From the IMG/VR virus record IMGVR_UViG_2706794686_000007: a stretch of 33,508 nt of DNA; one strand, written 5' to 3'. Positions 15,174 through 15,350 of the stretch are shown one piece after another. The stretch comes from a virus (lineage: Duplodnaviria > Heunggongvirae > Uroviricota > Caudoviricetes). The stretch's first letter is position 1; each line of letters starts with the position of its first letter. Both the position numbers and the translations under genes were made by a program. The notes beneath the pieces are model-generated. The model ran no database searches and had not been told where the DNA came from. It saw only the letters and a program-made list of their open reading frames with translations.

Positions 15174-15350
15174 ACCGGCAGCATAAGCCGGGTATTTTTG
15201 GGGCTGGTTTTGCGGGACTTCAGAAAGTGCTGACAGGGGGGGAATGAGAAAGGCGCTTCACGCAGATTTTAAAGCCCGTTAAATACAGGTTAGAAAATCA
15301 CGACACGCGCCTGAAGGGGGTAAGGTAATACGTTTGCATACCTTAAACCA
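15174..15350 (-). promoter_or_regulatory. G-I intergenic region: candidate late promoter and/or strong gyrase site
   Basis: 177-bp non-coding gap at the Mu G-I position; dyad TAAGGTA-N11-TACCTTA (about 15318-15345), C-tracts, and hairpin CCGGC-AGCATAA-GCCGG (15175-15191) abutting the I start codon. Confidence 0.3.

What the first reader, a model, noticed from the sequence alone, without database searches (positions are those of the whole stretch)
15174..15350. G-I intergenic region: candidate late promoter and central gyrase site
As I recall, Mu carries both the C-dependent late promoter for I and the strong gyrase site between G and I near the genome centre. This 177-bp gap is at the equivalent place, roughly 18 kb from the inferred left end. 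It contains a dyad (TAAGGTA-N11-TACCTTA), C-tracts that recur upstream of lys (CCCCCTTTT at about 23380), and a GC hairpin with T-run on the plus strand abutting the I start codon.
Basis: partly seen in the sequence, partly recalled or inferred. Interest (0 to 1): 0.45.

Follow-up and report, generated by a model that had tools for sequence, protein, structure and literature searches.

The report
Mu-like prophage central gyrase site and promoter
This 177-bp gap between two head genes of a Mu-like E. coli prophage is the counterpart of phage Mu's well-studied central gyrase site plus its late promoter for gene I, so it is an expected, largely known feature and not a new kind of element.

Summary
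The window is an Sp18-type Mu-like prophage with its late genes on the minus strand. The gap 15174-15350 lies between the G and I homologues, about 18.1 kb from the left end.

[quoted passage not shown] A 24-nt core matches at 21/24. This half differs at 3 positions from the Sp18 sequence, whose central site is reported to support Mu replication. The dyad sits where Mu is cleaved. The right arm is almost invariant in the family and has phased A/T tracts. It also folds into a terminator-like hairpin, as in Mu.

I-proximal half: a 25-nt box (15226-15202) is shared with the lys upstream region of the close relative Sp18 (20/25; 0/300 shuffles reach this). It lies the same distance from a tA...T -10 hexamer (TATGCT, 15185-15180) as the C-protein box in Mu late promoters. 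A C homologue is encoded upstream. The -10 ends 6 nt before the ATG, so the I mRNA may be leaderless.

Verdict: interpretation supported; a new member of a known kind; low interest.

The parts
15351..15353 (-). Stop codon (TAA) of the G homologue; anchor for the ungapped register with Mu.
15321..15345 (.). Dyad TAAGGTA-N11-TACCTTA, the putative gyrase cleavage core (G-segment). The arms are mostly conserved and the spacer varies among relatives.
   Evidence: Its centre (15333) lies 0.5 bp from the position homologous to the Mu cleavage stagger.
15331..15334 (-). Predicted 4-bp gyrase cleavage stagger (AACG on the minus strand). It is inferred only from the ungapped register with Mu 17876-17879.
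   Evidence: This is inference and no cleavage data exist. Sp18 has AATG here.
15276..15309 (-). Block conserved with the Mu SGS right arm (CGCGTGTCGTGATTTTCTAACCTGTATTTAACGG). The 24-nt core at 15276-15299 matches Mu at 21/24 and occurs once in the window.
   Evidence: Nearly invariant in both the Mu-type and Sp18-type lineages.
15251..15312 (-). Long hairpin on the sense strand that encloses the right arm. It is terminator-like and could end the lys-G transcript; A/T tracts are phased at about 11.5-12.5 bp.
   Evidence: -23.7 kcal/mol, z -4.1; the Mu equivalent gives -19.8, z -3.4. Mu carries a TransTermHP terminator annotation here. Phasing.
15227..15250 (-). T/C-rich tail and C7 homopolymer tract. 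It is the most variable segment of the gap, and Sp18 has a better U-tract (TTTGTATTTTT).
   Evidence: 13/24 columns variable.
15202..15226 (-). Candidate binding box for the C-family activator, TTTCTGAAGTCCCGCAAAACCAGCC. It lies at about -53..-29 from the predicted start.
   Evidence: It shares 20/25 positions with the lys upstream region of the close relative Sp18 (0/300 shuffles reach this). On the 17 specified consensus positions the I site scores 17/17 in both phages and the lys site 17/17 in Sp18 (11/17 in the window, where it is partly masked); the next best hit scores 13/17.
15180..15185 (-). Candidate -10 hexamer TATGCT (tA...T), invariant in 14 family variants. It lies 29 nt from 'CGCAA', as 'CATAA' does in Mu Plys and PI.
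   Evidence: No sigma-70 -35/-10 pair was found.
15175..15191 (.). Inverted repeat CCGGC-TTATGCT-GCCGG with the -10 hexamer in its loop.
   Evidence: z -1.5, not significant; stems invariant, so no covariation information.
15171..15173 (-). ATG of the I (protease/scaffold) homologue. It has no Shine-Dalgarno sequence, and the predicted transcription start is at or within 1-2 nt of the A (15173).
   Evidence: RefSeq uses the same start. The start site is inferred.
23367..23401 (-). Counterpart late promoter upstream of lys. The visible 3' part of the box is CGCAAATCCTGCC (23401-23389) and the -10 is TACGCT (23372-23367). The 5' part is masked by the N run 23402-23664.
   Evidence: The full motif is seen in Sp18 (L004) and JE86-ST05 (L035).

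Best explanation
The gap is a composite control region of a transposable Mu-like prophage, read on the minus strand from G to I.

(1) Central strong gyrase site. It has a cleavage core at the dyad (about 15321-15345). Its 'right arm' (about 15330-15251) has phased A/T tracts. These would wrap one GyrA C-terminal beta-pinwheel and present a T-segment. Gyrase would then supercoil processively from the middle of the prophage and help the two ends synapse for replicative transposition. This mechanism is taken from Mu and inferred here.

(2) Terminator-like hairpin. The same right arm, as RNA, forms a hairpin followed by a T/C-rich tail. It may end the lys-G late transcript.

(3) Activator-dependent late promoter for I. 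It consists of a 25-bp box for the phage's C-family activator at about -53..-29, no -35 element, and a -10 hexamer TATGCT. Transcription would start at or next to the ATG, giving a leaderless or nearly leaderless I mRNA.

What is shown: sequence homology, register, conservation pattern, motif sharing and spacing. What is inferred: gyrase cleavage and function, termination, activator binding and the start site.
For: Genome context: gene order and Mu homology. Mu itself carries the gyrase cut site, a predicted terminator and PI in its G-I gap.

SGS, sequence: the window and Mu align ungapped from the G stop codon over the right arm. The 24-nt core matches at 21/24, while the G and I coding DNA are only about 61-62% identical. 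The block is unique in the window, with 0 matches in 100 shuffles.

SGS, experimental link: the first ~105 nt differ from Sp18 at 3 positions. The Sakai Mu-like prophage site is reported to substitute for the Mu SGS (PMC10052514).

SGS, conservation: the right arm/hairpin has 3/62 variable columns against 8/38 in the core and 13/24 in the tract. Mu-type relatives show the same pattern. This fits reports that the right arm is essential.

SGS, phasing: A/T phasing at 11.5-12.5 bp puts Mu's right arm in the top 0.01% of its genome and the window's in the top 0.2-0.7%. More distant Mu-like phages (Edwardsiella, Apirhabdus, Pasteurella Pmp9) also carry phased TTTAAAC/TTTGAAAG elements just after G.

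SGS, position: 47% along Sp18 and 48.7% along Mu.

Hairpin.

Promoter: the box shared with lys; the same 29-nt spacing from box to -10 hexamer as in Mu. The Mu C footprint at -30..-55 and the required region -52..-34 come from the literature (PMC2582627). The +1 lies 7 nt after the -10 hexamer at Mu Plys (PMC4461284). A C homologue is present. The -10 hexamer and the ATG context are invariant.
Against: No cleavage, binding or transcription data exist for this sequence.

Gyrase motif: the published position matrix could not be obtained. A consensus-match proxy failed its Mu positive control, so the cleavage core is unscored.

The window and Sp18 lack Mu's first phased element (TTTTTTAAAA at +13..+22), and their phasing signal is weaker than Mu's.

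The window's core differs from the tested Sp18 core at two positions, one inside and one next to the predicted stagger.

I could not read Oram & Pato 2004. I therefore do not know which Sp18 fragment was tested.

The box resembles the Mu C box only loosely (CCGCAAAACC against ccATAACCcC).

Only two copies of the box (lys and I) were found; no counterparts of the P or mom promoters turned up.

The terminator scan did not call the long hairpin, and the window's U-tract is poor.
Confidence: 0.75

Rival explanations
1. The conserved block is conserved mainly because it is the intrinsic terminator of the lys-G late operon. Gyrase binding would be incidental or absent in this lineage.
For: The sense-strand hairpin is stable in both the window and Mu. 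Mu carries a TransTermHP terminator annotation at the same place. Sp18 has a good U-tract after the hairpin.
Against: The inner stem pairs in a different register in Mu and in the window, so the pairing is not preserved while the primary sequence is. Distant relatives keep phased A/T elements but fold differently and lack a U-tract. The Mu right arm is experimentally a gyrase determinant, and the Sakai site works as an SGS. The two functions can also coexist.
Confidence: 0.12
2. The dyad TAAGGTA-N11-TACCTTA is an operator for a dimeric DNA-binding protein, or an RNA stem that stabilises the 3' end of G mRNA. It would not be the gyrase cleavage core.
For: Its geometry (7-bp arms, 11-bp spacer) is typical of a helix-turn-helix operator. 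The arms are more conserved than the spacer. The RNA fold has z -2.7. The dyad is absent from Mu.
Against: A 7-bp inverted repeat arises in 20% of shuffles. One clade breaks an arm without compensation (TTGCCTTA). No second copy was looked for beyond the gap. The dyad centre coincides with the Mu cleavage register. Gyrase is a two-fold symmetric enzyme.
Confidence: 0.15
3. Alternative promoter geometry. CCCGCAAAAC (15216-15207) would be homologous to Mu PI's CCCGCAAACT, which contains Mu's -10 hexamer. Transcription would then start near 15200, giving a leader of about 27 nt that carries the CCGGC/GCCGG hairpin.
For: The global alignment pairs these strings. The resulting leader length would match Mu's 26 nt.
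Against: CAAAAC (and CAAAGC at lys) lacks the T at position 6 of a -10 hexamer. TAyGCTG is shared by the lys and I regions at identical spacing and is invariant. With this geometry nothing in the -30..-55 region would be shared with lys. An Edwardsiella relative also has a -10-like hexamer (GACAAT) 6 nt before the ATG.
Confidence: 0.12
4. The plus-strand hairpin with its T-run (15175-15201) is a real intrinsic terminator that stops antisense transcription entering from the I side.
For: It matches the terminator pattern. A run of 4-5 T is kept in all variants.
Against: The stem has only 5 pairs, the fold is not better than shuffles (z -1.5), and about one such hit is expected by chance. No plus-strand gene or promoter is evident nearby. 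The repeat brackets the conserved -10 hexamer.
Confidence: 0.08

Closest known systems
[quoted passage not shown]
   Same: It occupies the same intergenic position and the same near-central place in the genome. The right arm points towards I in both. A 34-nt right-arm block lies in identical register from the G stop codon. Both have phased A/T tracts and both overlap a terminator-like hairpin.
   Different: The cleavage core is unrelated in sequence and is a dyad here. Mu's first A/T element (TTTTTTAAAA) is missing, and the phasing signal is weaker. No functional data exist for this allele.
Central SGS of prophage Sp18 (E. coli O157:H7 Sakai), tested by Oram & Pato 2004
   Same: It is the same lineage. 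The first ~105 nt after G differ at 3 positions and the right arm is identical.
   Different: Two of the three differences lie in or next to the predicted cleavage stagger (AACG-T here, AATG-C in Sp18). The promoter-proximal half is about 85-90% identical, and the I protease domain is a divergent allele. I did not see the tested fragment's boundaries because the paper is not held.
Mu C-dependent late promoters (Plys, PI, PP, Pmom)
   Same: There is a tA...T -10 hexamer and no -35. A conserved upstream box sits at about -30..-55 with the same spacing to the -10 hexamer. A Mor/C-family activator gene lies just upstream of lys.
   Different: The box sequence differs (CTGAnnTnCCGCAAAnCCnGCC against ccATAACCcC). 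Only two copies were detected. The I leader is absent here (26 nt with a Shine-Dalgarno sequence in Mu). The phage has a single Mor/C-family gene where Mu has two.
Plasmid gyrase sites of pSC101 and pBR322
   Same: They are preferred gyrase cleavage sites.
   Different: They are reported not to support Mu replication. I made no sequence comparison with the window.

Membership tests
Mu-type central strong gyrase site | Lies near the centre of a transposable Mu-like phage genome, between G and I. | tested here: met
   The gap lies between the G and I homologues, 18.1 kb from the left end. It is 47% along the complete relative Sp18, against 48.7% in Mu.
Mu-type central strong gyrase site | [quoted passage not shown] | tested here: met
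   The alignment is ungapped from the G stop codon. The core matches at 21/24 and occurs once in the window, with 0 chance matches.
Mu-type central strong gyrase site | Phased A/T-rich (anisotropically bendable) signals in the right arm. | tested here: met
   At periods of 11.5-12.5 bp the window's right arm ranks in the top 0.2-0.7% of the window, and the Mu control in the top 0.01%. At 10-11 bp it reaches only the top 1-3%. The period was chosen after the fact.
Mu-type central strong gyrase site | High score against the gyrase cleavage motif, or demonstrated cleavage at the core. | tested here: inconclusive
   The position matrix (table DS10 of PMC6379681) is truncated in the held file. A consensus-match proxy did not rank the Mu SGS first, so it was discarded.
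Mu-type central strong gyrase site | Promotes synapsis of the prophage ends and fast replicative transposition. | not testable with these tools
   The only support is the literature statement for the Sakai orthologue (PMC10052514).
Mor/C-dependent late promoter | A Mor/C-family activator is encoded by the same phage. | tested here: met
   The first 59 residues are visible in the window. The full protein in the identical-gap relative is 40% identical to Mu C and 28% to Mor.
Mor/C-dependent late promoter | A -10 hexamer of the form tA...T with no recognisable -35. | tested here: met
   TATGCT lies at 15185-15180. The sigma-70 scan finds no -35/-10 pair in 14900-15600.
Mor/C-dependent late promoter | An upstream box at about -30..-55 shared among the phage's late promoters. 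| tested here: met
   The I and lys regions share 20/25 positions at identical spacing, with 0/300 shuffles as good. It was not found upstream of P or mom.
Mor/C-dependent late promoter | Match to the Mu C-box consensus (ccATAACCcC). | tested here: not met
   The equivalent position reads CCGCAAAACC, a partial match only. This fits a diverged recognition helix in the C homologue.
Mor/C-dependent late promoter | Transcription depends on the activator. | not testable with these tools
   This needs a reporter assay or 5' end mapping.
Intrinsic (rho-independent) terminator | A stable GC-closed hairpin directly followed by a U-tract. | tested here: inconclusive
   The hairpin is stable (-23.7 kcal/mol, z -4.1). 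The tail is CUUUCUCAUU in the window and UUUGUAUUUUU in Sp18. The pattern scan did not call it.

The most novel reading that the evidence does not exclude
In Sp18-type Mu-like phages the I promoter has been remodelled. A lineage-specific activator box (CTGAnnTnCCGCAAAnCCnGCC) drives a transcript that starts on the ATG itself. The protease/scaffold gene would then be translated from a leaderless mRNA. Read-through transcripts from lys-G would be blocked, either by the SGS-embedded hairpin or by the CCGGC/GCCGG stem next to an ATG that has no Shine-Dalgarno sequence. A single 177-bp gap would thus combine a gyrase wrapping arm, a terminator and a leaderless-mRNA promoter.
Probability: 0.3. Interest if true: 0.4.

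Novelty: new member of a known kind. Interest (0 to 1): 0.22.

Why it matters
The central gyrase site lets Mu-like prophages behave as an independent supercoiled domain and replicate quickly.

The practical value is modest. This gap sequence is present in 228 of 5426 complete E. coli genomes, many of them STEC, with up to 4 copies per genome.

Natural variation gives a ready-made mutational map of an SGS: the cleavage core varies while the right arm is nearly invariant, in both the Mu-type and the Sp18-type lineages.

The Sp18-type activator box and the possible leaderless I mRNA are small, testable additions to the Mu regulatory picture.

Tried and rejected
Gyrase motif scoring. The position matrix (table DS10 of PMC6379681) is cut off in the held supplement, and another paper had no held supplements. 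As a proxy I counted matches to the published 133-bp consensus, by base and by strong/weak class. It failed the positive control because the Mu SGS did not rank near the top, so I discarded it.

A/T periodicity at 10-11 bp was unremarkable, at the top 1-3%. Only at 11.5-12.5 bp does the Mu control stand out, and I then applied that period to the window. The choice of period is post hoc.

From memory of the older Lockshon-Morris cleavage consensus, the predicted stagger fits poorly. I did not rely on this.

Oram & Pato 2004 and Oram et al. 2006 are not held, so the experimental link rests on a review.

The genome-contig scan for distant relatives returned only two loci. An exact-pattern scan of viral contigs found only the Mu-type and Sp18-type lineages.

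A search for P- and mom-promoter copies of the box found nothing better than 13/17 positions.

Rfam finds no known RNA family in the gap.

Filling the window's masked lys-promoter half from E. coli JE86-ST05 is unsafe. That copy differs from the window nearby and carries indels elsewhere.

Full report
**What the window is.** ORF order on the minus strand is transposase A and B, a Mor/C-family gene, lys, terminase, portal, F, G, I, T, then tail genes. DNA matches show a Mu-like prophage of the Sp18 type. The gap and its flanks are 100% identical to a prophage in E. coli JE86-ST05 and about 91% identical to the prophages of O157 and other STEC strains. The gap occurs in 228 of 5426 complete E. 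coli genomes, with up to 4 copies per genome. Phage Mu itself matches at about 71%, and only in coding DNA. The G homologue is 15351..15824(-) and the I homologue is 14040..15173(-). The 177-bp gap at 15174-15350 must therefore be read on the minus strand.

**Checking the observation.**
- the dyad at 15321-15345;
- the plus-strand hairpin with its T-run at 15175-15201;
- C-tracts in the gap and upstream of lys;
- a distance of about 18.1 kb from the left end, which lies at about 33444.

None of them exceeds chance on its own. A 7-bp inverted repeat turns up in 20% of shuffles. About one terminator-like hit is expected in the region scanned.

**The G-proximal half is a homologue of the Mu strong gyrase site (SGS).** Counted from the G stop codon and without any gap, positions 42-75 of the window's gap align with Mu. 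The window reads CGCGTGTCGTGATTTTCTAACCTGTATTTAACGG (15309-15276) and Mu reads CGCGCCACGGGATTTTTAAACCGGTATTTAACGG. The 24-nt core matches at 21/24, whereas the G and I coding DNA are only about 61-62% identical. The core occurs once in the window and never in 100 shuffles.

This block lies at about +23 to +57 from the Mu cleavage centre, which places it in the 'right arm'. The literature reports that the left arm is dispensable and the right arm essential (PMC10052514; PMC6379681). In the cryo-EM structure the right arm wraps one GyrA beta-pinwheel, with A/T repeats facing the protein, and presents the T-segment (PMC11626157).

I located Sp18 in the Sakai genome. Its G-I gap differs from the window at only 3 of the first ~105 nt, and the right arm is identical. 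According to the 2023 review, the SGS of the Sakai Mu-like prophage was the one heterologous site that promoted Mu replication (Oram & Pato 2004). I could not read the primary paper.

**Conservation pattern.** I compared 14 distinct gap sequences from relatives that were picked through the I protein, and so independently of the gap itself. The numbers of variable columns are:

| Segment | Variable columns |
|---|---|
| Right arm / hairpin | 3/62 |
| Core with the dyad | 8/38 |
| T/C tract | 13/24 |
| Promoter box | 4/25 |
| -10 hexamer to ATG | 1/15 |

Mu-type relatives show the same pattern, with variation in the cleavage core and an almost invariant right arm. The I protease domain next door is a divergent mosaic allele. 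More distant Mu-like phages from Edwardsiella, Apirhabdus and Pasteurella carry phased TTTAAAC- or TTTGAAAG-type elements immediately after G.

A/T phasing at 11.5-12.5 bp puts Mu's right arm in the top 0.01% of its genome and the window's right arm in the top 0.2-0.7%. At 10-11 bp the signal is unremarkable.

**The dyad.** In the ungapped register, Mu's 4-bp stagger (17876-17879) corresponds to window 15334-15331. That is half a base pair from the dyad centre at 15333. The dyad is therefore best read as the two-fold symmetric G-segment core of this lineage. That reading rests on position alone. The spacer varies among relatives and one clade breaks an arm. I could not score the core against the gyrase motif.

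**Hairpin.** On the sense strand, 15312-15251 folds into a long hairpin (-23.7 kcal/mol, z -4.1). The Mu equivalent gives -19.8 kcal/mol and z -3.4. A T/C-rich tail follows, which is weak in the window and better in Sp18. It may terminate the lys-G transcript. The inner pairing register differs between Mu and the window. The self-complementary TTTAAA-type elements could also create the fold as a by-product.

**The I-proximal half is a late promoter.** The lys and I upstream regions share TTnCTGAnnTnCCGCAAAnCCnGCC, followed exactly 30 nt after CCGCAAA by TAyGCTG. The 25-nt core of the I regions of the window and of Sp18 matches the Sp18 lys region at 20/25, and none of 300 shuffles reaches this. 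On the 17 specified consensus positions the I site scores 17/17 in both phages and the lys site 17/17 in Sp18. The window's lys site scores 11/17 because it is partly masked, and the next best hit scores 13/17.

'CGCAA' lies 29 nt from the -10 hexamer, exactly as 'CATAA' of the C box does in Mu Plys and PI. If +1 falls 7 nt after the hexamer, as at Mu Plys (PMC4461284), the box spans about -53..-29. This matches the Mu C footprint at -30..-55 and the required region -52..-34 (PMC2582627).

No sigma-70 -35/-10 pair is present. A C homologue, 40% identical to Mu C and 28% to Mor, is encoded just upstream of lys. Only its first 59 residues are readable in the window because of a masked N run.

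The -10 hexamer TATGCT (15185-15180) ends 6 nt before the ATG (15173), and no Shine-Dalgarno sequence is present. The predicted I transcript is therefore leaderless or nearly so. Mu, in contrast, has a 26-nt leader with a Shine-Dalgarno sequence. An Edwardsiella relative has a -10-like hexamer (GACAAT) at the same 6-nt distance from its ATG.

Its fold is no better than chance (z -1.5).

**Comparison and verdict.** The arrangement of SGS, terminator-like hairpin and PI between G and I is that of Mu, and the SGS half is nearly identical to the Sp18 site reported to function. This is a new member of a known kind. Three things are not documented in anything I could find:
- the lineage-specific activator box;
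- the possible leaderless I mRNA;
- the dyad-shaped cleavage core.

All three are inferences that need wet-lab tests.

Noticed in passing
window 15865-15944 (+), inside the 121-bp F-G gap 15825-15945: A tRNA-like sequence lies antisense to the late genes. It scores 31 bits against Rfam tRNA (gathering threshold 29), with good acceptor, D and T arms but an over-long anticodon region. ARAGORN does not call it, while RefSeq annotates 'tRNA-OTHER' at the same place in JE86-ST05. Mu has no F-G gap.
   Followed up: partly
window 23348-24425 (-); L035 30643-31648: Sp18-type phages carry a single Mor/C-family gene, between a gp16/GemA-like gene and lys. Mu has separate Mor and C genes. A box-like site followed by a hairpin and T-run lies at about 23920-23870 (-), upstream of that gene, and resembles a middle promoter.
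   Followed up: partly
window 762-1030, 23402-23664, 27359-27628: Three masked runs of N, each 263-270 nt. The second hides most of the C-homologue gene and the upstream half of the lys promoter box.
   Followed up: yes
window 14600-15173 (-): The I gene is mosaic. Its N-terminal protease half is a divergent allele, with mean pairwise difference 0.25-0.35 among relatives. The C-terminal scaffold half and the upstream gap are nearly identical across the family.
   Followed up: partly
window 23336-23351 (-): An out-of-frame ATG (ATGAGACAG...) lies 16 nt upstream of the annotated lys start, within the predicted ~25-nt lys leader. A similar 4-codon mini-ORF (ATGCTGCCGGTATGA) overlaps the I start at 15184-15170.
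   Followed up: no
L035 (E. coli JE86-ST05, NZ_AP022815.1 806000-850000): The closest prophage copy is inserted in an rhs element. Several of its tail genes are annotated as frameshifted, and the genome holds three copies of the gap sequence, which suggests recent transposition.
   Followed up: no
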